In this document: positions 191 through 21,329 of the stretch, piece after piece
Position numbering within the stretch: the stretch's first letter is position 1
Layout of the letters: every line of letters starts with the position of its first letter
Origin: a virus
Strand: one strand, 5' to 3'
IMG/VR virus record: IMGVR_UViG_3300030329_003696
Span: 102,834-166,833 of that record
Length of the DNA: 64,000 bases
Notes under the pieces: model-generated
The model's input: the letters and a program-made list of their open reading frames with translations, nothing else
The model's database searches: none
What the model was told of the DNA's origin: nothing
Translations under genes and position numbers: made by a program

Positions 191-651
191 ATAAAATTGC
201 TCCTAAATGGCTGACTATACGTTATCGTGCGACCTTCCTAGTTTGGATAGTACATATCATTATATACTATAGATCGGCATATGTCAAGTGGTTCTTTAAT
301 AAAAAATTGAAAAATACGAATCTTTATTTATATATCATATATATTTAGCCCGAAACCGCTGACTATGGCTATCTTGGCGATATGATAAGTTAGAGTAATA
401 CATACTAAAAAATATTAGCATTTAAAAATAAGTGTCAACAAAATGTAACCAAATCTCGCTGGCTATAGGCATCTTGGCGAAACGTTAGCTTCGAGTGAGA
501 CAGAACGGGTCAGATCGAGCGAGTGACCAAACGTGTCACACCTATATACAGACATACATACTATACATTATAACACATATATCGTCAATTACAAGGGGTC
601 ATCTTTATTTTTATTTTTATGTTGAATGGTATGAATTTTGCTGTATGAGTT

Positions 652-668
652 TTGGCATGGTATTTGCA
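652..668 (+). promoter_or_regulatory. sigma54-type (-24/-12) site
   Basis: TTGGCATGGTATTTGCA, GG to GC offset of 12. Confidence 0.55.
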
Positions 669-849
669 CAAATCCGGGGGGGCCCGGCCGCAGCCGGTGT
701 CAACCCCTATTCTTCAAAAAAACAGGAAATAGACCAGAAAAAAATCACCATCAAAATTAGCTGTATCATACCCTACCATCCCACTGAAGTTATAAAAACC
801 CCAAGCGGCCAAATGGCCGCAAGGGGTAACACAACAGAAAGGGGTAAGG

Positions 850-1767
850 TTAGGCCGCAAGTTCCAAAGCGAGCTTCTCAGCCGCCTTGACCTCTTGCGA
901 GTTGGATGCACGCAGGATTCGATCAAAGTCACCCTTGAAACCCTCCTTCGCCTGTGCGTCGTGTTGGACGTAGCCCTGAATAGCGTTGTATGCTTCCCAA
1001 GCGGAAACCACATTGGTCATCGCTGGACGACCTGTCAGGTTACGCTCACGATTAAGACGCTTCCAGATTGCCTCAGTACGATTTTGGTGAGTAGTCACCG
1101 CACGCACTCGCTCGCCACGGGCTGCACGATCCAGTTGATCCTGATCAGGACGACCATAGATAGAATCGAGAAACTCAGTCATGCGAACCTCAGTAGATTC
1201 GAGACGGTCAATAACATCGGTCAGGGTAGACCAGCTATTTTTGAGGGTCTCAAATGTTGAGATCAATTCGTCCATGTTGGCACGCAATCCGGAAGTGTGA
1301 CGAATGGAAACGGTTGTACCGTTCACCATACGCATCATCGCCAGATTACTACACGCATCACGGAAATAACCCATAGTGGCGGTAAACGCTTTACCGTCAT
1401 AACCAGCGTTAATCATCACGCGAGGCCATACGTTATCCGTATCACGATCCTTGAAAATCGAACGACGATCTTCAGCGGTTGGTTGAATGGACACATAGTG
1501 ACCACTACGGAAGTGAGTATTGCAAGCAATCTCACCATCGAACGCCTCACCAGCGGCATCGACCAACGCACAAACGTCATCAGTCGTATGGGGAACGTAG
1601 CGAGGGGAAACGGACTTCACGCCCTTGAGATAACCCGTATCAGAACGGAACAAGCCGTACTGGTCAGTCGGCATATGATCCGGGCCAAACAGTGGAAACT
1701 TGTCAACGGTGAAATCGAAAGCGGAACGAACGGAAGCTGAAACGTCAGCAGATTGAATGTTAGTCAT
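850..1767 (-). CDS. DUF932-family (phage/plasmid-like) protein
   Basis: Motifs FRSDTG..L..VSPRY, NAGYDG, FRDACSNL, IRHT, SAWEAYNAIQGYVQH. Confidence 0.75.
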   Translation of the reverse strand: MTNIQSADVSASVRSAFDFTVDKFPLFGPDHMPTDQYGLFRSDTGYLKGVKSVSPRYVPHTTDDVCALVDAAGEAFDGEIACNTHFRSGHYVSIQPTAEDRRSIFKDRDTDNVWPRVMINAGYDGKAFTATMGYFRDACSNLAMMRMVNGTTVSIRHTSGLRANMDELISTFETLKNSWSTLTDVIDRLESTEVRMTEFLDSIYGRPDQDQLDRAARGERVRAVTTHQNRTEAIWKRLNRERNLTGRPAMTNVVSAWEAYNAIQGYVQHDAQAKEGFKGDFDRILRASNSQEVKAAEKLALELAA

Positions 1768-1953
1768 AGTAAAACCTTTCTGAAATGTGTGAAACTAACT
1801 TACTCTCTCATTATAATATATATCGGCTAGATGTCAATGGGGACTTGAGCTTTTTTTGGATTTTTTTTATTCCGGACTTTTTTGGCTTTTTTAGCATTTT
1901 CCCTCTTGACAAACGACCCGGCCGGGGGGGCCCGGATTCCAAGGTCAACCGGC

Positions 1954-2070
1954 GACCCTCATGTTGGCGATGAGAGATCTATTTGAATCCTGTTACCCCG
2001 TCGCCCTCTTCTCATCTTACAGTTACCGTTGTTAGCGTAAGACGGCGGGCAGGCAACCAACATAAAGGTC
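1954..2070 (-). ncRNA. Candidate structured RNA (~120 nt)
   Basis: 14-bp closing stem with G.U pairs only on the minus strand, plus internal helices; no credible ORF. Confidence 0.45.
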
Positions 2071-2094
2071 AACCGGCATCTCTTGAAAGGAATA

Positions 2095-2325
2095 CTAATC
2101 CTCGTGAGGCATTGTACAATATACTTCGTAAGGTGTAGCGGCATAGGTCATCTGTGAATGGTCATCTTCCCACCATCCTACAAACCCCTTCACCCCACCA
2201 CCAGAAGCAACTTCAAAGCAAGCGATGCGGTCGTTCGTTTGCTCCGCCAGTTTGCAAGTGCCTTCTTCACGAATAATTTTTCTTACAAAGTTGTTAAATC
2301 TAACAACGCTTCCTACTTTGTCCAC
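2095..2325 (-). CDS. Hypothetical protein (probable GTG start)
   Basis: In-frame part of ORF 2095..2397 directly after the upstream stop. Confidence 0.5.
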   Translation of the reverse strand: MDKVGSVVRFNNFVRKIIREEGTCKLAEQTNDRIACFEVASGGGVKGFVGWWEDDHSQMTYAATPYEVYCTMPHED

Positions 2326-2326
2326 G

Positions 2327-2698
2327 TTACCACCAGCTACTATACACAACGGTATAGCCTTTCTTAATTGCCGCACGAGCCTCACGGATGAACTCACGGT
2401 CTTGCTCTGCGTAATATTCTTCAGAGTTTTCCCCGAAGAAGAAACCTACTGTCTCTGGTAGGGCGTTTTCGTCCAGAGCTTCTTCCATGCTGTCCAAGTC
2501 CCCAAGTGTCAATTCGACATCGACACAATTAAACTCACCATCTCCACCCTTTTCACGGTAGAGTTCTTCCATCCACCCCTGCAAACTAGGGTGCTTTCGC
2601 CAGTAGGCCAGTTCCATACTGTCCTCGTAGTAAGTGTAGCCATCTTCGTCCTTCTTAGCTTCGCCACGTCGTGCGGATGCGTATTGGTCAAGTCCCAT
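2327..2698 (-). CDS. Conserved phage hypothetical protein (MGLDQY...YWRKH type)
   Basis: GAAAGG RBS; recognisable phage motif ending YSSWW. Confidence 0.75.
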   Translation of the reverse strand: MGLDQYASARRGEAKKDEDGYTYYEDSMELAYWRKHPSLQGWMEELYREKGGDGEFNCVDVELTLGDLDSMEEALDENALPETVGFFFGENSEEYYAEQDREFIREARAAIKKGYTVVYSSWW

Positions 2699-2770
2699 AA
2701 TTTTACCTTTCAAAAAGTAGTGTTGGTTATACTGTATATTCTAACATACAATTATTGTATGTCAAGTGGT

Positions 2771-3238
2771 CTAATGAAAAAATGGTGGTTTATGACTGAA
2801 GGCCATTACTGCATTGTCGAGGATTGACAAGTCAGCATAGTCAGCGTTTTCTATTGGGCTTGCGTCGTACTGCTTGATGAACGTGTCACAGGTGTATGGG
2901 TTGTAGTAAACTTTTTCCCATCGTGTTTCGCCGTTGTCGATCTGCTCATCAGTGAGATGACCGTCAACTTTTTGGTCGGTCGTACGAGTATCAACCACAT
3001 AGCCCTCAATAAACGCATGTACGTTTTTCTTCTGTTCATCCCTGACTCTCCTTTGTCCTGCCTTGGACACAATGAATTGACAACTTCTCAACGTAACATT
3101 TTCTGCATGACAGCGAACGATGCCGCCTTGCTTAACGCTGTAGCAATCTCGATGCAGGTTGCGATAGACTCGCACCTTCTTGGTTGGGTCGATATGCTCC
3201 GCAATCTGGAAGCTTTTTTGTGTTCGTGGTTTCTTCAT
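2771..3238 (-). CDS. Conserved phage hypothetical protein
   Basis: VRVYRNLH, KNVHAF and YNPY motifs; own promoter and RBS. Confidence 0.75.
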   Translation of the reverse strand: MKKPRTQKSFQIAEHIDPTKKVRVYRNLHRDCYSVKQGGIVRCHAENVTLRSCQFIVSKAGQRRVRDEQKKNVHAFIEGYVVDTRTTDQKVDGHLTDEQIDNGETRWEKVYYNPYTCDTFIKQYDASPIENADYADLSILDNAVMAFSHKPPFFH

Positions 3239-3412
3239 AACTTATCCTTTCGTGTTACCCTTCCATTATATTATATATATCGTCATAGTCAAGGGGTCGG
3301 CATTAACTTTTTCTGGCTTTTTTCTAATCTTTTTTTACTGAGAACCAGTCTCAACAACCAAACCGGGGCCGCCCGGATTTGCCCGCCGCGTCAATCCGGC
3401 TGGAATGAGTAA

Positions 3413-3453
3413 GACACCGCCACCGGCTGAGACTACCCCAACCGGCAGCGGCG
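3413..3453 (-). terminator. GC-rich hairpin downstream of 3536..3820
   Basis: CGCCGCTGCCGGTTGG...TCAGCCGGTGGCGGTG inverted repeat. Confidence 0.45.
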
Positions 3454-3535
3454 TATATAAAAAAAATAAAAAATAGCGGTTACCTTTTATCCTCACCACC
3501 TATACCGCAAGGTCAGTGGTGCGGGTCATAGCGTC

Positions 3536-3820
3536 CTACGACTTTAGGAACGGTGCGACTAGGGAACCAACGAAAGGAATTTTAATTCCCCAATTCTGAC
3601 GCTCTTTATAGAACGCCTTTACACCGTCACGGGTTTGCACCGTGTCAAGGTCTCGCGACCGTTTGAATTCAGGATCGTATTTACGATACGCTCCCGTGAT
3701 TGTCTCCCAACTAAGCGGGTGCTTGTTGGTGTTGCGTCGTTCCTTAAGAACTCCCCAACGAAACTTAGAACCTTCAACCGGTTGCTTGTAACTGAACATA
3801 ACTAGACTTTTCATAATCAA
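3536..3820 (-). CDS. Hypothetical protein
   Basis: ORF with AAAGGA RBS on the coding strand of the region. Confidence 0.65.
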   Translation of the reverse strand: MIMKSLVMFSYKQPVEGSKFRWGVLKERRNTNKHPLSWETITGAYRKYDPEFKRSRDLDTVQTRDGVKAFYKERQNWGIKIPFVGSLVAPFLKS

Positions 3821-3890
3821 TATCCTTTTGTGTAGTGGTCTGAAATACCATGAGCTGCTGAAAAAAATAAAAGTAACAATACAAGTTGAA

Positions 3891-4673
3891 TCACACTGTT
3901 GCCACCTTTCTGCTATAGCTATGCCGCACCTTGTCCCGTTTCAGCACCTTTAAGGCATCGGCGGCTTCGCTACCTTTGGGCTGTGTTCCGTGTAGCATCA
4001 ATGCAAATGATTGATTGCGTAGGCTTGGCTTTGCTGCGTGTGTGTCGTCGTGGTCGATAGCTAGTCCGAGATCGTGAGCCTCTTGTTCACTGTATACCAC
4101 TTTGGCGAATCGCATATCGTACTCGTCGATACGCCAATCATCACGACCGCCATATGATGCGGTCAAAACGAAATTGTGTAGAATTGGAAACTCGTTGATA
4201 GAGTGCCAGAACCTGAGCGACTTGGTATAAGCGTAGAATAGCTTGTCGGGGTTTGCCACTGCTACAGAATACCACGCTTCCATATATTGCTGATTGAAGA
4301 AATCGCCTGCAACGTGGATGCGAACGATACCGGCATTGGTGGGTAATGAGTTATTGATTAAGTCAATCATCTCGCCGGTTGATAGTTTACGCAACGAATC
4401 AAAATTGTGTTTGCGTAGATTGTACACGTTGGTGTACTGTACTTCCTGAGAAGCTGAGAAGCAACGGAACTGCGTTTTGTGTCCGTCTTGTATTTTGCGT
4501 TTGCCGTTTGGCTGAACTACGGCTTTGGATAGGCACGACTCTGCGAACGGGCATGAGTAGCCACTGAGAAGGTCAAGGGAATAAACCTTGCGTTTATCTG
4601 TCAGATACTCTGACAACTCGTCGTCGTTTTTGAGTGCTTCGATTTTAGCGTTTGCGTTTGAGAACTTTAACAT
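3891..4673 (-). CDS. Gene product 88 (GP88)-like protein
   Basis: SGYSCPFAESC, RIHVAGDFF, FYAYTKS, LTASYGG and HGTQP motifs. Confidence 0.7.
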   Translation of the reverse strand: MLKFSNANAKIEALKNDDELSEYLTDKRKVYSLDLLSGYSCPFAESCLSKAVVQPNGKRKIQDGHKTQFRCFSASQEVQYTNVYNLRKHNFDSLRKLSTGEMIDLINNSLPTNAGIVRIHVAGDFFNQQYMEAWYSVAVANPDKLFYAYTKSLRFWHSINEFPILHNFVLTASYGGRDDWRIDEYDMRFAKVVYSEQEAHDLGLAIDHDDTHAAKPSLRNQSFALMLHGTQPKGSEAADALKVLKRDKVRHSYSRKVATV

Positions 4674-4766
4674 CTGTTTACCTTTCGTTGTGTTGCTTAC
4701 AGTCTTATTCTACTATATATTATCGGAATGTCAAGGGGTCAAACTTGAATAATTCCGGTTATTTTT

Positions 4767-4921
4767 TGGCGACGGGAACGGGGACTCGAACCCCGCACTC
4801 GTAGGCACCAACTCGATAAGGCCTGAGATAGCCCCGTCGATTCCCTCCCAATCCGTCGATTAGGCCAGTTGTCGAACTATCATGTCGTCGGTGTCTCATC
4901 CTACGAGACCATTTTCCCGCC
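4767..4921 (-). ncRNA. 155-nt tRNA/tmRNA-like RNA ending in CCA
   Basis: 8-bp acceptor GGCGGGAA/TTCCCGTC + G-CCA; T arm CGGGG-TTCGAGT-CCCCG; long interior helix; own promoter at 4936-4963. Confidence 0.65.
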
Positions 4922-5109
4922 ATGTTGTTTACTCTATTATATATTATATCGGCTATTTGTCAAGGGGAACTTTAGCATTTTTCCAAAGTTTTTTTTCATT
5001 GTTTTTTTCCTGTTTTTTGCCGATTGGACTTGACTTTTGACCCGGCCGGGGGGGCCCGGCTCGCCGGTTTGTCAACCCCTATTTTTATTTTTTTCGTGGG
5101 GAAAGAGAA

Positions 5110-5132
5110 GCCGCCTGAACGTCACAGGCGGC
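5110..5132 (-). terminator. Hairpin after 5164..5367
   Basis: GCCGCCTG-N7-CAGGCGGC perfect 8-bp stem. Confidence 0.5.
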
Positions 5133-5163
5133 ATTCTCCCCACAACACGAAAGGTCGGCGGTT

Positions 5164-5367
5164 TTAGAGTGACGCCACGCACTTTTTCAGTGAGAACGAC
5201 TTGTGCAAGCCGTTGTCCTCTCGGACGGTAATCCCACGGCCATTTGGCCCGGTGAAGCTCGCAACCTTTACGCCGGTTACTGAGCGGAGGATATTCTTAC
5301 TCCCGTTTTTGGGATACAGGAAAGAAACTTTGCGTTCGTTACGCTTGTGATAAAGATCGTTGTTCAT
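5164..5367 (-). CDS. Small hypothetical protein (possible WYL/SH3-like fold)
   Basis: GAAAGG RBS before MNNDLY; F.Y...R.V...KSFSL pattern. Confidence 0.55.
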   Translation of the reverse strand: MNNDLYHKRNERKVSFLYPKNGSKNILRSVTGVKVASFTGPNGRGITVREDNGLHKSFSLKKCVASL

Positions 5368-5527
5368 GGATGAACCTTTCAACTTGTGAAAAAGAAAATT
5401 GTTTGACACCATCCGCAGTGTCGATTAAAACGTGATCGTTCTTAATGGCTACGACCGTGCCAGCAGGGAATTTGGTGCCGATCCTGCATAACGGCGTTTG
5501 TGAGTTACTCACTCTCTGATTCTCCAT
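5339..5527 (-). CDS. Hypothetical protein
   Basis: Overlapping operon gene. Confidence 0.55.
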   Translation of the reverse strand: MENQRVSNSQTPLCRIGTKFPAGTVVAIKNDHVLIDTADGVKQFSFSQVERFIHEQRSLSQA

Positions 5528-5738
5528 CTGCGAGTTGCTTGGCTTCCTCTAGACGCTCGGAAGCGATTTGCGTGAGCTTGTCGCCTAGCTTTTTGTGAAG
5601 CTGTGCCATGACTTCCTCAGTCATCGTGAACAATACAACGTCATCTCCGTTGTGTAGTTCGACCTCATTGTCAGACTTCCAGCTAGACAGGTAGGTGTGG
5701 TCAATCTGACCGAACTCTACTTTTTGTGAAATCTTCAT
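5505..5738 (-). CDS. Hypothetical protein
   Basis: GAAAGGAG RBS. Confidence 0.7.
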   Translation of the reverse strand: MKISQKVEFGQIDHTYLSSWKSDNEVELHNGDDVVLFTMTEEVMAQLHKKLGDKLTQIASERLEEAKQLADGESESE

Positions 5739-6062
5739 AAGACTTCTCCTTTCAAAAAAAAATGTGTTGCGGATGCAGTGGCTCTTAACCCTAACTCACT
5801 AGCTTGATATTATTCGCCTCAAGACAGGCAGGTGAGTTCCAGTTCCGTGCTGTGTTATACTACCATTATACTATATTTATCGGCAATGTCAAGCGGTTAC
5901 TTGAGGAATTTCCAAAATAATTTCGGAATCTTTTGCGAGTTCTGAATCCTTCTCGATATAGATCGAGCCTGACACGTCGCCGGTTGCTGTAAAGCGTACT
6001 TTCGTCTTTGTCTCTTTGTCTTTGATAAATTTGATTGTCATCTTAAAAACCTTTCGCTAAAA

Positions 6063-6215
6063 TTAAAACTCACTAATGGCCGCACGACGTTGTGCCGACC
6101 GTGTACGTTGCCGCTTCGGGCGATTATCATGAACCTGATGAGTGTTGGCTTGATGGCCGACTGAGGGTTTCCCCAGCTTGATCTTCAGGGTTATCGTTTG
6201 CTTTCGTCTTTTCAT
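6063..6215 (-). CDS. 50-aa basic peptide (not in ORF track)
   Basis: MKRRKQTITLKIKLGKPSVGHQANTHQVHDNRPKRQRTRSAQRRAAISEF. Confidence 0.5.
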   Translation of the reverse strand: MKRRKQTITLKIKLGKPSVGHQANTHQVHDNRPKRQRTRSAQRRAAISEF

Positions 6216-6309
6216 TTTTCACTCTTTCAATGTCGTCTTGCAAGGCTAACCAACGTCGCTTCTGTGCCATGCTTGTGAATGTTCTGTGTTTTGCTCGTTC
6301 GTCTTTCAT
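6127..6309 (-). CDS. Hypothetical protein, possibly leaderless
   Basis: ATG lies ~7 nt from the -10 box of promoter 6316-6343. Confidence 0.45.
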   Translation of the reverse strand: MKDERAKHRTFTSMAQKRRWLALQDDIERVKNEKTKANDNPEDQAGETLSRPSSQHSSGS

Positions 6310-6374
6310 GTCTTTATTATACTTTATTTATCGGCGTTGTCAAGGGGTAAACTTTAATTTATTTTGACTTTTTT

Positions 6375-6668
6375 CGCTGACTCGCTGGCTACCACATTTA
6401 CACTTTATCCGTTAGGATAAGATGAGACACATCACGATGGCAGGCCTATCCATCTGCACCGTAGTCTGCTGCGTCCTTTTTTAAGTTCACAAAGGAACCG
6501 GATTTGACTTACGCCTCGATGCACCCCTAAATCGTCTTACCGATCCTGTCCTTACGTAATGGCTACAAAGGCCTTAAAGGGGTTGTGATGTTGTCTCGTT
6601 GTAAGATGCCCCTTTCGGGGAACCAAGTCCAGCGGCGTAGTTCCAACTGGGTTGTAGCTAACTTACTC
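6375..6668 (-). ncRNA. Candidate ~300-nt structured ncRNA
   Basis: Own promoter (6673-6700), no ORF of 60 aa or more on that strand, many helices and a GAAA tetraloop. Confidence 0.55.
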
Positions 6669-6819
6669 CTCCATTATAATATACATCGACCAAATGTCAA
6701 GGGGATCTTGAATAAAATTCCAGAAAAAACCAGAAAACTTTTTTCACCTTTTTTCCGTTTTTCCTATTGACAAAAACCCGGCCGGGCGGCCCCGGCTCGC
6801 CGGTTTGTCAACCCCTATT

Positions 6820-7032
6820 CTAGCAAAAAGCACATGCGTCGAGCGTGGGCGTGTACTCTCCTCCTTGCTTGCCGCACTTGGGGCAGATGTCGCTACCGTC
6901 TAGGACGGTGGGGCAGGTGTTGGATTGCTCCTCTAGTTCCATCTGCTCCTCGCACCACATCCAAAACTCAAGTGAGCCATCACTTTCTGGCTCTTGGTAA
7001 TCTCTTGGATCGCTCATAACTCCACTCATCAT
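6820..7032 (-). CDS. Small acidic zinc-ribbon protein
   Basis: CPKCG...CAFC. Confidence 0.55.
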   Translation of the reverse strand: MMSGVMSDPRDYQEPESDGSLEFWMWCEEQMELEEQSNTCPTVLDGSDICPKCGKQGGEYTPTLDACAFC

Positions 7033-7108
7033 AAAGACCTAACAAAACAGGAAATGTAACAGCGGCGACAATCGCCCAATTCCAAAATACAACCATCTCA
7101 CTACTCAT
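6980..7108 (-). CDS. Single-TM micropeptide
   Basis: MSSEMVVFWNWAIVAAVTFPVLLGLY... overlapping the upstream stop. Confidence 0.45.
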   Translation of the reverse strand: MSSEMVVFWNWAIVAAVTFPVLLGLYDEWSYERSKRLPRARK

Positions 7109-7490
7109 AATCGCAGTACGCCTCCCATGCGTCGTAATCGTTGTAAGTATCCTCGAACGGCTCGCCGTTGTACGGATCGTCATATAGTTCATTGTCGCCA
7201 ACGCAGGCGAAATCCTCATCGTCGTAGAGGTTATCGGATCGCATACCTTCTTCCCACGCGATGGCTTCCTCCGTCCACTCGTACTCGTCGGTGGTGTCGA
7301 GTTCACCGATAGAATCATCGGTGTCATCTTCCCACCCTTCGGGTGCGGACAGTTGGAAATCCTCCGGCTCCGGCAGAGGCTCTGATGCCTCTTGTGAGTC
7401 GAGCCACTCGTGGTACTCAGCCCAATCAGCCGCAGTCGGCTCGTAAGAGGTGATTTCTTCGCAGTGGATTTGTGTGTCGAACTTGGTCAT
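7101..7490 (-). CDS. Highly acidic protein (DNA-mimic candidate)
   Basis: About 45 D/E versus 2 K/R in 129 aa; promoter and RBS present. Confidence 0.75.
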   Translation of the reverse strand: MTKFDTQIHCEEITSYEPTAADWAEYHEWLDSQEASEPLPEPEDFQLSAPEGWEDDTDDSIGELDTTDEYEWTEEAIAWEEGMRSDNLYDDEDFACVGDNELYDDPYNGEPFEDTYNDYDAWEAYCDYE

Positions 7491-7652
7491 GTTGAAAACC
7501 TTTCAAAGAGTGATGTGTTGTATGCCTCTATTATAACTAATATCGGCCAGTTGTCAAGGGGTTCTTGAGAAAAAAAAGAAACTTTTTGGTAATTGAGTGA
7601 TTGCGACAGAGCTTACCAAACTCCACACCCCGAAGGGGACGGTCAAGCGGTT

Positions 7653-7865
7653 CTACTCCTCGTCGGAGCCGAACAACTCATTCCAGCACTTGTCACAAGT
7701 GCCAGAGATGAGAAGCTCGCGTTGATCCGCTGAAAGCTCGGGGAGAGCATCTTGGATCAACTTGCCGCCTTGCCAAGCAACGAATCCCTCGATGTTAACC
7801 GTGAGATCCGTCACCTCTTTACAAAGGCGACAGGGAACCGCAACGACTGATGTCATTGCTAACAT
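7653..7865 (-). CDS. Small Zn-binding phage protein
   Basis: CRLC...IQDALPELSADQRELLISGTCDKCW. Confidence 0.75.
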   Translation of the reverse strand: MLAMTSVVAVPCRLCKEVTDLTVNIEGFVAWQGGKLIQDALPELSADQRELLISGTCDKCWNELFGSDEE

Positions 7866-7916
7866 GATTTAATTATATCATAAAGAGTTGATCTTGTCAA
7901 GGGGTATTTGGAAATT

Positions 7917-7985
7917 TTACGATAAAACTTCTGCACCCAGAAGACCAACGAGACACGCACAAACCAGTAAAATAAAAAACGTCAT
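7917..7985 (-). CDS. 22-aa hydrophobic micropeptide
   Basis: MTFFILLVCACLVGLLGAEVLS; AAGGAGG RBS; own promoter. Confidence 0.55.
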   Translation of the reverse strand: MTFFILLVCACLVGLLGAEVLS

Positions 7986-8197
7986 ATCAACTTCCTCCTT
8001 TATACTATATATATCGGCAGGAGTCAATAGCAAACTTAACAAAAAACCAAAAAAAAGCAAAAAAACCCGGCCGGGCGGCCCCGGATCGTCCCGGTGTCAA
8101 CCCCTTTGGTTTGGATAATACATAGATGGCGGGTACGGCTGGAGGCGTCTCGTCTCACCCTCACACGCTTTACCGACGAGTTGACCTTACCATCTAT

Positions 8198-8365
8198 TTA
8201 TAGTGAGACATCACGAACACCGCGAAGGATACCCAACCGGCGGAACATGCGAACCACAAAATTGACTTTAGCCTGTCGTTCATTTTCCAATCTCCTTTTT
8301 TCAATATTTTCTAATCGTTGACAATAACGTGCCAACTCATTGGCGTGTGTCCTTCTCATTCTCAT
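8198..8365 (-). CDS. Small basic hypothetical protein
   Basis: In-frame ATG within ORF 8198..8413. Confidence 0.45.
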   Translation of the reverse strand: MRMRRTHANELARYCQRLENIEKRRLENERQAKVNFVVRMFRRLGILRGVRDVSL

Positions 8366-8441
8366 AGTATCAACCCCGATATAATACAACCGGCAATAAA
8401 TGCAATCGTGCAAAATATAATTGCTTGCTTCTGTTCTTCGT

Positions 8442-8741
8442 TCATAGTTCTGTACTCCATTCGTGATATTGTTCGGTACTCATAAAACTCATATCTTCAC
8501 CGTGAGCAAGTACCCACGGAAAACCAAATTCATCTTCTACCCATAGTTCAAGCAAATCTAAATTGCCAGCGGCTACAGCTTCGTCAAGTACCTCAGTAGG
8601 TACAGCGACCTTCATAGAACTAATCGCTCCACCTTCAGGGGTTTCTCCAAACCACTCGCACTGTTGCCAGTTCGACGGTTTCAATATCCTGCAAAGTGTA
8701 ACCATACAAACGCCCATCGGGGGCAAAATTCCATCATTCAT
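8442..8741 (-). CDS. Acidic hypothetical protein
   Basis: Coupled to the upstream gene (TAATG overlap). Confidence 0.65.
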   Translation of the reverse strand: MNDGILPPMGVCMVTLCRILKPSNWQQCEWFGETPEGGAISSMKVAVPTEVLDEAVAAGNLDLLELWVEDEFGFPWVLAHGEDMSFMSTEQYHEWSTEL

Positions 8742-9175
8742 TATTCGGTCTCCAAGTCATCCCATTCAATCAGTCCACCGTTAACCATACCACGAACAAA
8801 AGCGTATTCGTTTTTGGCAAGCTGAATTTCATCGGCTTCGTTTTCGCCATAGTCAAAACCACTTTCCATATCGACGAAATCCGTACCGCCTTTATGCGTG
8901 GTGTAAATTGCTTTTTCCTCGAATTGCTTTCTCAGCTTTTCGATGTTGCGAGCTTTTGCCGCTTTCGCTTTTTGGTGTGCGGTTTCGGTTTCTTCTTCTT
9001 CCGCAATCAATTCATTCAAGCGTGCAAGCGTACGACCACCACGAATCTTGTCGTGATACTTTTCAGGCAGCAAATCGTTAGGAACTTCGATGCACTCAGC
9101 GAACACGCCTTCAACGTGTGCATTGAGTTCGTCGATGTTGTTGAATCCGCAGTAAGGTTTAGTTGAGTCTAGCAT
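8741..9175 (-). CDS. Hypothetical protein
   Basis: GAAAGGA RBS and promoter. Confidence 0.7.
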   Translation of the reverse strand: MLDSTKPYCGFNNIDELNAHVEGVFAECIEVPNDLLPEKYHDKIRGGRTLARLNELIAEEEETETAHQKAKAAKARNIEKLRKQFEEKAIYTTHKGGTDFVDMESGFDYGENEADEIQLAKNEYAFVRGMVNGGLIEWDDLETE

Positions 9176-9233
9176 AGTTTTCCTTTCGAGTGTGTTTTGT
9201 ATATCTAAATTTTACTTTATGAAATTGTATTTG

Positions 9234-9389
9234 TCAAGGGGTTTCAGAAACTTTTTCCGACTTTTTTGCTTCTTTGTCTATGACAACCATAGCGTCAATA
9301 ATAGCGTTTGTGGCTGCCCTTGATGCTCCGGCTTCCTTAGCCTTGTGCCATACTTCCCACAACAGTGATTTTAGTTCTTTCGTTTTCAT
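9234..9389 (-). CDS. Small hypothetical protein
   Basis: MKTKELK... with GAAAGG RBS and promoter. Confidence 0.6.
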   Translation of the reverse strand: MKTKELKSLLWEVWHKAKEAGASRAATNAIIDAMVVIDKEAKKSEKVSETP

Positions 9390-9455
9390 TTTCTTTCCTT
9401 TCGTTATGTTTATCATTATACCATAATTATCGGCACTTGTCAATAGCAATCTTAA

Positions 9456-9572
9456 CTAATTCTCATAATAATTTAATATTTTTGTGACAACCCAGCCGAC
9501 TGGAATCAACAACGCCGGAACAATTACGAACATCATCAATTCTTCGTTTTCAATCATCCACTCAAAACTCAT
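9456..9572 (-). CDS. 38-aa single-TM micropeptide
   Basis: MSFEWMIENEELMMFVIVPALLIPVGWVVTKILNYYEN; RBS and promoter. Confidence 0.6.
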   Translation of the reverse strand: MSFEWMIENEELMMFVIVPALLIPVGWVVTKILNYYEN

Positions 9573-9738
9573 AGCTTTCCTTTCGTGTTAACTTCTTAAG
9601 TCTATCATATATATCGGCCACTGTCAAGGGCAATCTTTAGAAAATCTCAAAAAAAAGGCAAAAAATCCCGGCCGGGGCCGCCCGGATCGACTCACTGTCA
9701 ATAGGGAAAGTTTGAAAAAGACAAGTTTTTCCCAGTTT

Positions 9739-9951
9739 TTAGAACCCGCCTAATCCGTGCATGTCGTGCAACACATCCCAAGCCGATTGGGAAGCGTTCC
9801 ATTCATCGACAGTCATTCCGAATTGTTCATGAATTGGGATCTCTTTGACTTCCGATTCTTTCCAGCTATTGCCGTTTGCAATGCTTGGCTTGTCAGAGCC
9901 ACCGATTAACAAATACTGTTTTCCCTGTTCGGGCTTATCTTTTTTAGTCAT
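9739..9951 (-). CDS. Hypothetical protein
   Basis: GAAAGGAAAG RBS. Confidence 0.65.
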   Translation of the reverse strand: MTKKDKPEQGKQYLLIGGSDKPSIANGNSWKESEVKEIPIHEQFGMTVDEWNASQSAWDVLHDMHGLGGF

Positions 9952-10007
9952 AATCTTTCCTTTCGTTGATTTCTTATATTATTATTATCGTCTATGGGCG
10001 TGACACG

Positions 10008-10220
10008 TTAGGTCATCCGAACGTATTTTCCTACAAGTTTATGCCACTTTTTCATGACATATTCGTATTTGCCCTGACACTCAGGATTGCCTATTGCAGC
10101 TCCGGTTGAACCTACCCAACTACAGATTGCCCACTTGTTTGTATGATTGCATCGCACTAGGTAACGCATGCCGGTTGGCGTATCTTTGGTCATTCTGATT
10201 GTATAAGGTTGGTAGTTCAT
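10008..10220 (-). CDS. Hypothetical protein preceded by a sigma54-type site
   Basis: MNYQPY... with GAAAGGAAAG RBS. Confidence 0.65.
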   Translation of the reverse strand: MNYQPYTIRMTKDTPTGMRYLVRCNHTNKWAICSWVGSTGAAIGNPECQGKYEYVMKKWHKLVGKYVRMT

Positions 10221-10257
10221 AATCTTTCCTTTCGATTGCTTTCTATAGTATATATAG

Positions 10258-10274
10258 TGCATTACCCGTGCCAA
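10258..10274 (-). promoter_or_regulatory. sigma54-type site
   Basis: TTGGCACGGGTAATGCA, ~40 nt upstream of the ATG at 10220. Confidence 0.5.
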
Positions 10275-10491
10275 ACGTGCCGATTGAGCCAATAAAATAA
10301 AATAATCTTTTATTAGCCTGTAAAACAAGGGGTTTCAGAACATAAATAAATTTTTGTGTTTTGGCATGGGTTTTGGCATGGCTTGAAAAGTGTTATCAAA
10401 TTGATACAACCTGTTATCAAATTGTCCTAATGCTACTATACAAGTATAATACGAGGTAACCAAAAATCAAAATGATGACACATTAACATAG

Positions 10492-10508
10492 AGCAAATAC
10501 CGTGCCAA
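10492..10508 (-). promoter_or_regulatory. sigma54-type site
   Basis: TTGGCACGGTATTTGCT, near-perfect -24/-12 consensus. Confidence 0.6.
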
Positions 10509-10587
10509 AAATTGCCGACCGGGCGGCCCCGGAGCTGGTGGCTGTCAATAGGGAAAGTTTGAAAAAGACAAACTTTTTCCTAGTTTT

Positions 10588-11112
10588 TTATAGCTCATCT
10601 GGGAAGTCTTCCATGTCAAACAGCTCAACGTGTTTGTGTACCAAGTCCAGAGGGACGGGAAGATTGTACCCTTTGCGGCTTTCCTTTCGTTTAGAAGCCC
10701 ACTGATCCCAGAACCTTTCGCTAGTTGTCCATTTCAATATGATTCCCTCGGTCGGATGAACAAAAGCGAAAACAATATACTCAAACGATTCCGGACATAT
10801 TCCCATAAAGAAAAACCGTTTATTAGTCTGATTGCTATTGGTCACCAAAGCCGATTTTACCTCAACTCTCACAGGGCGGTCTGTAAGCTCAACCGTAATA
10901 TCCCACTCGCCCGTATGAACGGTTTGAGTTGCTTCAAAGCCCATATTTTTAATGTGTGAGAAGACTACGCTTTCAATGCGTGTTCCTCGGTTTGTGGAAG
11001 TCATCTTTGACGCAGCGAAAGAGGATGGGCAATGATCCCCATAAAGCGACTTGTTTCCTTCTTGTCCTTCTGCGTCGATTAACTGATCAAGTGTGATTTC
11101 GTTGTAGCTCAT
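10588..11112 (-). CDS. PD-(D/E)XK restriction-endonuclease-like protein
   Basis: G..IE...WDITV...RVEVKS catalytic pattern. Confidence 0.6.
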   Translation of the reverse strand: MSYNEITLDQLIDAEGQEGNKSLYGDHCPSSFAASKMTSTNRGTRIESVVFSHIKNMGFEATQTVHTGEWDITVELTDRPVRVEVKSALVTNSNQTNKRFFFMGICPESFEYIVFAFVHPTEGIILKWTTSERFWDQWASKRKESRKGYNLPVPLDLVHKHVELFDMEDFPDEL

Positions 11113-11213
11113 TTTTTTACCTTTGCTTGTGTTGTGCTTAATTGCTTATGTCTTAATTATAATATACTTATCGGATTTGTCAAGGGGAATCTTTAATAAT
11201 TCCCAAAGTTTTT

Positions 11214-11522
11214 TTATCCTGCTACCCATGCGTGCAACGATGCTTCATCCCATTTACGGGGAAAGCCCGAAGCATCGCAATCGCTAGGGCAACCGCACTG
11301 AATCCAAACCTTGGCCGAATTCAGAAGCTCGCTCAATGGAGCGTATGGCGAATAATTGAAAACCATAGCGTTGCCGATTGGATCAACGACGTAAGCAATC
11401 AGCTTGGTAACCATTACGTTACCATCTGGATCGAGTTCGCTAATCTTATCAACCCATAGGGTATGATCTTCAAGGCCGTAGTTTTCAGAATTAAAGATAT
11501 TTTTAACAGCTTCAGTTTTCAT
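11214..11522 (-). CDS. Hypothetical protein
   Basis: RBS and promoter. Confidence 0.7.
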   Translation of the reverse strand: MKTEAVKNIFNSENYGLEDHTLWVDKISELDPDGNVMVTKLIAYVVDPIGNAMVFNYSPYAPLSELLNSAKVWIQCGCPSDCDASGFPRKWDEASLHAWVAG

Positions 11523-11599
11523 TTTAACTTTCCTTTGTGTTGTTTTGTTATGTTCTTATTATACTATAACTATCGGCAAAAGTCAAGGGGTATCTTGAA

Positions 11600-11713
11600 C
11601 TATTTTTCAAAAATATTGAAATAAATAATGTGTGCCCCAAGCGTTGCGATTGATACAATAATGCCGGTTGAAACGATAATCTTCGAGAGAATTTCTAATT
11701 GTGCCATTTTCAT
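11600..11713 (-). CDS. 37-aa single-TM micropeptide
   Basis: MKMAQLEILSKIIVSTGIIVSIATLGAHIIYFNIFEK; RBS and promoter. Confidence 0.6.
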   Translation of the reverse strand: MKMAQLEILSKIIVSTGIIVSIATLGAHIIYFNIFEK

Positions 11714-11899
11714 TTTCCTTTGTGTTGTGTTTTTGTTATGCTTCTATTATACATAGATCGGCAGAAATGTCAATAGGCTTTAGCTAAAAATCCAGAAAAA
11801 AAGCAAAGTTTTTCCGGGGCCGCCCGGATCGCCCAGGTGTCAACAGTAAATCTGGTCTTTTTGTCGAAGTACTGTGACGCCCCTAGGCGATTGGTTAGG

Positions 11900-19352: not shown

Positions 19353-21329
19353 ATGACTGATTTGAAAAATATCGATGAAGCTTGGTTGAACCTAGATATA
19401 AAAGAAAAAAATCTTTTTAATCCGTTCAAGCTTGTTAATTTTAACGACGACGACTTTCACCTTAAGATGCTTTGGCTCATGACTAGGCCAGAGTATTTTT
19501 CCTTTTTATGTAAACATGTTTTTAATATAAACATTCTACCATCTCAAGCACTTTTCTTATGCGAGATGTGGAACAGAAGATTCCCCATGCTCATCGCTAG
19601 TCGTGGTTTTGGTAAATCATTTATATTATCACTGTACGCCATGATCAGAGCCTTGCTTTTGCCCGAAAGAAAAGTCGTTGTAGTTGGTGCTGCATTCCGA
19701 CAGTCGAAGGTGCTTTTTGAATATATGGAAACAATTTGGAACAATTCTCCAATTCTGAGAAGTATGTGTGACTCTAACAGTGGTCCCAGAAGAGATGTTG
19801 ATCGTTGTGTTATGAGGATAAATAACTCTAGAGTAACATGTTTACCTTTAGGTGATGGACAAAAAATTAGAGGTCAAAGAGCCAATGATATTATTAGTGA
19901 CGAGTTTGCTTCGATCCCCAGAGATATCTTTGAAACTGTTGTTGCTGGCTTTGCTGCTGTTAGTTCTGATCCCATAGAGAACGTAAAGAAGATAGCAGCA
20001 AGAAAAAAAGCCCAAGAGTTGGGGGTTGAGCTAGAGGAAGAGAGTGACTCTGTACTAGAAAAGAAAGACAACCAAATTATATTAAGCGGTACAGCCTATT
20101 ATGATTTTAACCATTTTGCAGTATACTGGAAGAAGTGGAAATCAATAATTAAAAGTCAGGGAAGATTAAACAGGTTGAGAGAAATATTTGGAGAAGACCC
20201 ACCTAAAGATTTTGACTGGAGGGACTACTCCATAATCAGAGTTCCTTACGAGCTTTTACCAGAAGGCTTCATGGATGCCTCACAGGTTGCTAGATCAAAG
20301 GCGACGGTTCATGCTGGAATATATCAAATGGAGTTCGGAGCGTGCTTTACACGTGATTCTCAGGGCTTCTTTAAGCGTACTCTAATAGAAAGTTGTGTTA
20401 CGAATGATACAGACTCCGTAAAAGACTCAAAAGGTGAACAAATATGTTTTCAGGCACAGCTAAGGGGGGACATAAATAAAAAGTATATATTTGGTGTTGA
20501 CCCCGCATCAGAAGTTGATAATTTTAGCATAGTAGTTTTAGAGGTTAATGGCGACCACAGAAGAATTGTTCACTGCTGGACTACAAACAGGTCGGAACAC
20601 AAAGAAAAGGTGAAGAGCGGTTTTTCCTCAGAGAGCGATTTCTACGCCTACTGTGCTAGAAAAATCAGAGATCTAATGAAGATATTCCCATGTATACACA
20701 TCGCTATGGATGCTGGTGGTGGAGGAATTGCTGTCATGGAATCCCTACACGATCAAGACAAGATCCAAGATGGAGAGTTACCCATCTGGCCAGTTATAGA
20801 TGATGATAAGCCAAAAGATACAGATGACCACAGAGGGCTACACATACTTGAGATGTGTCAATTTTCCAAGTATGACTGGTTAGCTGAAGCAAATCATGGA
20901 ATGAGAAAAGATTTTGAGGACAAGGTTCTTTTATTCCCAATGTTTGACTCCGTAAGCTTAGGAATAGCAAATGTCGAGGATGGACTAAAAGGTAGAAACT
21001 ATGATACGTTAGAGCAGTGTGTTATGGAAATTGAGGATCTTAAAGACGAATTGACTATGATTCAAATCACTCAGACGGCCACAGGTAGAGATAAGTGGGA
21101 CACACCAGAAACAGTTATAGGAACCGGTAAAAAGGGTAAGCTAAGAAAAGACCGTTACTCTTCTTTACTTATGGCTAATATGGCCGCTAGAACCTTATCA
21201 AGAATGCCGGAGGCAACAATCTACAATTTCTACGGTGGTTTCGCAACGCTAGAAAAATCTAAAGACAAAACCGGAGAAGACTACTCTGGCCCAAACTGGT
21301 TCACAGATGGTATGAATGGCATTTATTAA
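19353..21329 (+). CDS. Terminase large subunit
   Basis: Walker A ASRGFGKS, IISDEF Walker B, GVDPA nuclease start, KDRYS. Confidence 0.9.
   Translation: MTDLKNIDEAWLNLDIKEKNLFNPFKLVNFNDDDFHLKMLWLMTRPEYFSFLCKHVFNINILPSQALFLCEMWNRRFPMLIASRGFGKSFILSLYAMIRALLLPERKVVVVGAAFRQSKVLFEYMETIWNNSPILRSMCDSNSGPRRDVDRCVMRINNSRVTCLPLGDGQKIRGQRANDIISDEFASIPRDIFETVVAGFAAVSSDPIENVKKIAARKKAQELGVELEEESDSVLEKKDNQIILSGTAYYDFNHFAVYWKKWKSIIKSQGRLNRLREIFGEDPPKDFDWRDYSIIRVPYELLPEGFMDASQVARSKATVHAGIYQMEFGACFTRDSQGFFKRTLIESCVTNDTDSVKDSKGEQICFQAQLRGDINKKYIFGVDPASEVDNFSIVVLEVNGDHRRIVHCWTTNRSEHKEKVKSGFSSESDFYAYCARKIRDLMKIFPCIHIAMDAGGGGIAVMESLHDQDKIQDGELPIWPVIDDDKPKDTDDHRGLHILEMCQFSKYDWLAEANHGMRKDFEDKVLLFPMFDSVSLGIANVEDGLKGRNYDTLEQCVMEIEDLKDELTMIQITQTATGRDKWDTPETVIGTGKKGKLRKDRYSSLLMANMAARTLSRMPEATIYNFYGGFATLEKSKDKTGEDYSGPNWFTDGMNGIY

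What the first reader, a model, noticed from the sequence alone, without database searches (positions are those of the whole stretch)
6375..6668. ORF-free ~300-nt transcription unit that folds into a multi-helix RNA
Seen: a full early promoter (6673-6700) drives a segment with no ORF of 60 aa or more on that strand. There is a long-range helix GAGACAACATCAC (6585-6597)/GTGATGTGTCTC (6424-6435), hairpins CCCC-GAAA-GGGG (6609-6620) and TTATCC-TAAC-GGATAA (6405-6420), plus ACCCCT/AGGGGT, GATGG/CCATC and a possible pseudoknot TACGCC/GGCGTA. I do not recognise RNase P, tmRNA or complete group I signatures. Inference: an uncharacterised large phage ncRNA.
Basis: partly seen in the sequence, partly recalled or inferred. 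Interest (0 to 1): 0.72.

Follow-up and report, generated by a model that had tools for sequence, protein, structure and literature searches.

The report
Modular knotted RNA of marine phages
This gap is the gene for an uncatalogued folded RNA kept by a group of large uncultured marine phages: a small knotted core, laid out like the part of the signal recognition particle that grips the ribosome, into which different phages plug different extra RNA pieces; its job is untested.

Summary
Real, but it is two RNA modules behind one promoter, not one 300-nt fold. Module B (6424-6597, minus strand) belongs to a family absent from Rfam 15 with at least 85 distinct variants in marine phage and metagenome contigs, one copy per genome where found. 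Two sites accept swappable domains of 3-79 nt. Module A (6601-6666) is missing from most homologues and leads protein genes elsewhere; the proposed TACGCC/GGCGTA pseudoknot is not supported. The core has the topology of the SRP Alu 5' domain but fails its defining features (no invariant UGU, no helix 5 or S domain). Best guess, inferred only: a trans-acting early RNA whose knot is a docking or decoy surface for host translation or RNA-defence machinery (about 30%). Transcription evidence is weak. The scan holds no look-alike sequence in other genomes; one note likens a different lake-phage RNA to the Alu domain.

The parts
6673..6700 (-). sigma-70-type early promoter, TTGACA-16-TATAAT; start of transcription inferred near 6667
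   Evidence: one of 13 such promoters in the early region; kept in front of most homologues
6601..6666 (-). Module A: optional 5' module; closing helix 6666-6662 with 6605-6601, hairpin 6650-6647 with 6632-6629 and a conserved 14-nt loop, GAAA hairpin 6620-6609
   Evidence: in about 10 core-bearing loci only; alone as leader of protein genes in L153 and L343; closing helix and GAAA stem covary
6424..6597 (-). Module B: the conserved family member (core plus two accessory domains)
   Evidence: 85 distinct variants parsed; CM matches; covariation
6585..6597 (-). P1 5' strand (pairs with 6435-6424); sequence free, pairing kept
   Evidence: over 30 strand-pair types, 79 of 82 with 5-6 of 6 pairs
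6579..6583 (-). P2 5' strand (pairs with 6527-6523); CCC/GGG constant, so no covariation support of its own
6570..6574 (-). Pseudoknot 5' strand AGGCC (pairs with GGCCT at 6446-6442 in the P3 loop)
   Evidence: all 5 pairs formed in all 82 parsed variants; second pair A-U, G-C, G-U or C-G
6528..6569 (-). Variable site 1, inside the P2 loop: here hairpins P2b (6562-6550) and P2c (6545-6530)
   Evidence: 3 to 79 nt across the family; P2b covaries
6456..6522 (-). Variable site 2, between P2 and P3: here a 67-nt domain (P4 6522-6518 with 6460-6456, P5, P6, inner hairpin) in place of a 4-nt linker
   Evidence: P4, P6 and inner hairpin covary; 4-nt linker or other inserts in relatives
6436..6454 (-). 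P3 hairpin (6454-6450 with 6440-6436) whose loop carries the pseudoknot 3' strand
   Evidence: double changes at three positions
6400..6423 (-). 3' trailer with hairpin 6420-6405; not conserved in sequence
   Evidence: some trailer hairpin below -4 kcal/mol in 70 of 85 variants (no shuffle control)
6316..6343 (-). next promoter, separating the RNA from the following genes
   Evidence: a promoter 84-130 nt downstream in most homologues

Best explanation
Shown: module B is a conserved, non-coding, structured phage RNA with a three-helix core closed by a 5-bp loop-loop pseudoknot and two insertion sites; module A is a separate passenger. Inferred: it is made early from its own promoter, P1 clamps its ends so that it is a stable free RNA, P2 and P3 lie side by side joined by a 4-nt turn (or a helix put in its place) with their loops paired, giving a compact elbow like the SRP Alu 5' domain or tRNA. 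The constant P2/pseudoknot/P3 face docks on, or acts as decoy for, a conserved host partner that reads such elbows (ribosome factor-binding site, or tRNA-directed nucleases and sensors), helping host takeover; the inserts add or tune contacts. Confidence that the RNA and fold are real about 0.93; the number given is for the mechanism.
For: Own promoter 15-29 nt before the core and a new promoter before the next gene in most loci: not tied to any mRNA. Sequence constancy sits in P2, pseudoknot and P3, while P1 keeps pairing only. Same strand order as Alu helices 2-3-4 with a 5-bp loop-loop pseudoknot (PMC4231752). The P2-P3 linker is U-R-Y-R in 32 of 36 short forms (TACA 18, TATA 9, TGTA 2, TGCG 2, TGCA 1), against UGUA in B. 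subtilis; that paper says this loop short-cuts the tRNA acceptor stem, and here it is the very place where whole helices are inserted flush against P2. One copy abuts a tRNA-Asp gene, another lies 214 nt before tmRNA; the genome also has a tRNA-framed RNA, a tmRNA and tRNAs. Phage tRNAs are known counters to anti-tRNA defences (PMC11464382, PMC11555353; abstracts and titles).
Against: No binding partner is identified and no experiment exists. A three-way junction with kissing loops is a common topology (purine riboswitches, phi29 pRNA; own knowledge). UGU is not kept, P2 is only 3-5 bp, there is no helix 5 or S domain, and SRP models give no match. Stalling ribosomes would also harm the phage. 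Inserts of up to 79 nt right beside the knot may not fit a ribosome site. Not found in G027, which holds 14 early promoter cassettes, so it may be accessory.
Confidence: 0.3

Rival explanations
1. The core is an aptamer that binds a small molecule (for example an immune or stress nucleotide) and acts as an RNA sponge.
For: Compact three-way junction with kissing loops and a few constant unpaired bases (U and A before the pseudoknot, A before GGG) is typical aptamer anatomy; early free-standing expression fits a sponge.
Against: No expression platform, no fixed downstream gene, junctions of 0-2 nt leave little pocket; no RNA sponge of this kind is known to me.
Confidence: 0.15
2. The core is a new small self-cleaving or processing ribozyme that cuts early or tRNA-cluster transcripts.
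For: About 60-nt pseudoknotted core with variable peripheral helices; found behind ORFs, before a tRNA and before tmRNA.
Against: One copy per genome; usually alone in its transcription unit, with nothing to process; no invariant unpaired G or C as a general acid-base candidate; no Rfam ribozyme match even on the minimal form.
Confidence: 0.12
3. The core is a nuclease-resistant chassis that displays passenger RNA modules, which carry the function.
For: At least five unrelated inserts at two sites; one insert (module C) also stands alone in L151, L211, L280, L284.
Against: Passenger-free minimal copies with their own promoter exist (L171, L377) and keep the same core bases.
Confidence: 0.12
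4. The loop pairing is between molecules, giving rings or cages as for phi29 pRNA, ROOL or GOLLD.
For: Covariation cannot tell intra- from intermolecular pairing; ROOL and GOLLD of phages form such assemblies (PMC12286853).
Against: Only one conserved loop pair; the RNA is far smaller than ROOL or GOLLD; it sits among early genes, not packaging genes.
Confidence: 0.08
5. A cis-acting leader (riboswitch or stabiliser) for the next gene.
For: L360, L241 and L238 have an ORF within about 65 nt downstream. Module A, unlike module B, does behave as a leader.
Against: In most loci, and in this window, a separate promoter lies between the RNA and the next ORF, and the downstream genes differ.
Confidence: 0.07
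6. A shrunken RNase P-like catalytic core (P1, P2, P4).
For: Strand order and the AAAGCC/GGCTT pairing recall RNase P P4 (own knowledge); one copy precedes a tRNA.
Against: The universally bulged U and the rest of CR-I and P4 are missing, an extra helix encloses the 3' strand, no Rfam RNase P match.
Confidence: 0.03
7. Chance folding, a DNA element or a small-peptide gene.
For: Folding z-score of the whole stretch is only about -2; expression is not shown firmly.
Against: Compensatory and G-U-preserving changes on the minus strand; lengths of all three phases and a stop-free sense frame in only 13 of 85 variants.
Confidence: 0.02

Closest known systems
SRP Alu 5' domain (B. subtilis; PMC4231752)
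   Same: Closing helix, two hairpins joined by a short 4-nt loop, and a 5-bp Watson-Crick loop-loop pseudoknot; protein-free size range.
   Different: Free-standing phage gene, no helix 5 or S domain, UGU not constant, P2 only 3-5 bp, whole domains inserted in the P2 loop and in place of the linker; no sequence or model match.
raiA motif RNA (PMC12968392)
   Same: Stand-alone RNA with closing P1, compact pseudoknotted core, dispensable peripheral stems and a natural minimal form; unknown function.
   Different: raiA has two pseudoknots, conserved P1b/P1c sequence, and is bacterial; different strand order; no Rfam match.
GOLLD, ROOL and manA phage RNAs (PMC12286853; RF01745)
   Same: Phage-encoded structured RNAs of unknown function, sometimes beside tRNA genes.
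   Different: Much larger or differently built; no model match; here one knot and a 60-65-nt core.
RNase P catalytic core (own knowledge)
   Same: P1-P2 frame with an AAAG..CC / GGCUU long-range helix.
   Different: No bulged U, only 5 bp, extra P3 helix, no other conserved regions.

Membership tests
SRP Alu domain | three-way junction of helices 2, 3, 4 | tested here: met
   predicted P1/P2/P3 junction, P1 and P3 supported by covariation, P2 constant; 3D family not testable
SRP Alu domain | loop-loop pseudoknot, 5 Watson-Crick pairs in prokaryotes | tested here: met
   82 of 82 variants pair, one position covaries (definition)
SRP Alu domain | conserved UGU between helices 3 and 4 | tested here: not met
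   TGTA in 2 of 36 short linkers; mostly TACA or TATA; replaced by a helix in this window
SRP Alu domain | helix 5 with minor-saddle motif and attached S domain | tested here: not met
   nothing equivalent flanks P1; RF01854 finds nothing in the genome while ringing in controls; no SRP match
SRP Alu domain | binds the ribosome factor site and slows elongation | not testable with these tools
   needs experiment
RNase P RNA | CR-I with bulged U in an 8-bp P4, CR-IV, CR-V | tested here: not met
   5-bp helix without bulge in all variants (definition from own knowledge); no Rfam match
raiA motif | P1, P3-P6 with PK1 and PK2, conserved P1b/P1c sequence | tested here: not met
   one conserved pseudoknot, P1 sequence free against PMC12968392; no Rfam match
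Known small self-cleaving ribozymes (hammerhead, twister, twister-sister, pistol, hatchet, HDV-like) | family-specific catalytic core sequence and topology | tested here: not met
   no Rfam match at E up to 10 on long or minimal forms; comparison of cores by eye from own knowledge also fails
Known small self-cleaving ribozymes (hammerhead, twister, twister-sister, pistol, hatchet, HDV-like) | site-specific self-cleavage | not testable with these tools
   needs assay
tRNA / tmRNA / group I intron | acceptor and T arms, tag frame, or P3-P7 core | tested here: not met
   ARAGORN and Rfam find none at this place
Riboswitch | fixed position in the leader of functionally related genes with an expression platform | tested here: not met
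   module B is mostly separated from the next ORF by a new promoter; module A inconclusive (two leader cases, unlike genes)
Candidate viral structured RNAs of Fremin et al. 2023 (PMC10690425) | presence in their list of about 10,000 IMG/VR-type motifs | not testable with these tools
   no supplementary files held

The most novel reading that the evidence does not exclude
A phage-made, free-standing Alu-like RNA that binds the host ribosome's factor site (or decoys tRNA-reading defence enzymes), with natural plug-in sites through which phages swap RNA modules.
Probability: 0.15. Interest if true: 0.85.

Novelty: new variant of a known kind. Interest (0 to 1): 0.58.

Why it matters
It adds an uncatalogued, well-supported RNA fold with a natural deletion series from about 63 to 175 nt, so structure, self-cleavage, ligand and ribosome-binding tests can be run on a tiny RNA at once. 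It shows phage RNAs evolving by plugging whole modules into a constant core, which could serve as a natural display scaffold. If the Alu-like reading holds, it would be a viral RNA that works directly on the translation machinery, a mode of host takeover or counter-defence known so far mainly from proteins and tRNAs.

Tried and rejected
Rfam on the window, region and minimal forms: nothing relevant. blastn against 50,697 cultured phages: only a 38-nt chance match; nearest cultured terminases 24% identical. Pattern scan of GTDB genomes: 11 hits, none with P1, judged chance. Model R2 in 151 genomes of the phylum of a Lacipirellula MAG: not found in those searched; filters were strict and no positive control was included, and the host is not established. 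Weak second hit in the own genome (G000:42414-42518, E 0.07) lacks the core motifs. First-reader pseudoknot rejected. A second pseudoknot inside the insert (6509-6507 with 6465-6463) pairs in only 90% of cells with no double change: unsupported. RNA runs: in X1, whose contigs match this phage at 99% or more, neighbouring cassettes are covered but 6209-6864 is not; a hole proves nothing. Paper searches with motif strings gave only unrelated primers. Most hits are chance matches in coding DNA and were discarded. P2c constancy is partly an ascertainment effect, though members found by other patterns share it.

Full report
Setting. The window is the last 64 kb of a 166,833-base virus record rated complete. 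Its first 14 kb are minus-strand cassettes, each behind a near-perfect sigma-70 promoter; a large terminase lies at 19353-21329. No cultured relative is close (24% terminase identity). The host is unknown.

Observation. Folding energy is only mildly unusual (z -2.09; -2.75 for 6424-6597 and -0.73 for the 5' 67 nt). Rfam 15 has no match.

Homologues. Pattern scans of viral and metagenome contigs and searches of related phage records gave 85 distinct variants by a structural parser, plus L360 and L377. Complete or nearly complete relatives G005, G044, G045 and G046 each hold one copy; their terminase or capsid proteins are 64-84% identical to this phage's. A more distant phage (L156 group, 38-43% identity on a few proteins) has a minimal copy. 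G027, with 14 early cassettes in a 67% complete record, gave no match, so the RNA may be accessory. No convincing bacterial copy was found.

Anatomy of module B. Reading 5' to 3': P1 strand, 0-2 nt, CCC (P2), a 5-nt link with constant U and A, the pseudoknot strand, variable site 1, A-GGG (P2), variable site 2, P3 strand, 3-4 nt, the partner strand, one base, P3 strand, P1 strand. On an unfitted alignment of 34 long copies, 94.6% of cells pair; 15 of 55 pairs and 40 cells show changes on both sides, against 5.4 and 6.9 in shuffles and 3-7 pairs in slid controls (relatedness inflates such counts, but the slid control keeps it). The pseudoknot pairs in all 82 parsed variants, its second pair being A-U, G-C, G-U or C-G (the parser demanded at least 4 of 5). 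P3 changes on both sides at three positions. P2 is constant and so rests on topology, not covariation. Site 1 ranges from 3 to 79 nt and site 2 from 4 to 69 nt; the smallest member is about 63 nt (L377). In this window site 1 holds two hairpins and site 2 a 67-nt domain whose P4, P6 and inner hairpin covary. One site-1 insert of relatives also stands alone in other loci. No reading frame is conserved.

Module A. The first 66 nt occur before the core in only about ten loci and occur without it as the leader of protein genes in L153 and L343. Its closing helix and GAAA stem covary and its unpaired parts are constant. An RNA-library contig of a relative joins 6596 to 6668, i.e. lacks it. It is a separate candidate motif.

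Context. Most copies start 15-29 nt after their own -10 box and are followed 84-130 nt later by another promoter. Others follow ORFs, one abuts tRNA-Asp, one lies 214 nt before tmRNA. No fixed downstream gene exists, which argues for action in trans.

Expression. Contigs from RNA libraries of three studies cover parts of module B (X3 6515-6591, X4 6318-6535, X6 6315-6596, mostly from relatives). Some run through promoter DNA, and contigs cannot show strand, ends or level, so this is presence in RNA libraries, not proof of transcription.

Mechanism. Shown: conserved non-coding fold, modularity, independent promoter. Inferred: a stable early RNA whose constant knot contacts a host partner. [quoted passage not shown] Here the equivalent linker is U-R-Y-R in 32 of 36 short forms and is where helices are inserted flush on P2, as an acceptor stem would stack on a T stem. 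This makes an elbow-like mimic or decoy my best guess (0.30). It is not a member of the Alu family: UGU is not kept, helix 5 and S domain are absent, and SRP models do not match. Rivals are a ligand sponge (0.15), a new ribozyme (0.12), a chassis for passengers (0.12), an oligomer (0.08), a cis leader (0.07), an RNase P remnant (0.03) and artefact (0.02); the remainder is unforeseen.

Novelty. Not in Rfam 15 and not found in the papers searched; the list of about 10,000 viral candidates in PMC10690425 could not be checked. The scan's own notes hold only this same stretch by sequence. I class it as a new family within a known kind, stand-alone structured phage RNAs of unknown function such as GOLLD, ROOL and manA, with an unusual plug-in design. 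Interest 0.58.

Noticed in passing
window 4767-4921 (-): tRNA-framed RNA: acceptor stem, T arm and CCA end with a long insert in place of the anticodon arm; ARAGORN calls it only with introns allowed. Similar framed RNAs in L153 and L321.
   Followed up: partly
window 5770-5862 (-): Another structured leader module with a candidate H-type pseudoknot, conserved in L106, L147, L150, L212, absent from a relative in run X3 (joint 5793-5864), and with a shorter look-alike in L153.
   Followed up: partly
window 6601-6666 (-); L153:3738-3811, L343:635-705: Module A as a stand-alone leader of unrelated small acidic-protein genes: a possible riboswitch, 5' stabiliser or ribozyme worth its own study.
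   Followed up: partly
L122:1463-1497, L151:3446-3480, L211:9470-9504: Module C, a 45-nt motif found both inserted in site 1 of the core and standing alone; absent from this window's genome.
   Followed up: partly
L321:19-216 (-): Weak manA RNA match (E 0.007, below the gathering score) in a related phage.
   Followed up: no
G000:C1:95084-95400 (-): Permuted tmRNA with tag GVENYAMAA beside four tRNA genes, outside the window.
   Followed up: no
window 287-11773 (-): Thirteen early promoters share a GCCGAT or GACGAT box in the spacer, also in relatives, and GC-rich palindromes recur between cassettes (e.g. 6781-6796).
   Followed up: no
L321:1501-1830 (-): Cluster of several unannotated structured RNAs in a row before the core and tRNA-Asp.
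   Followed up: no
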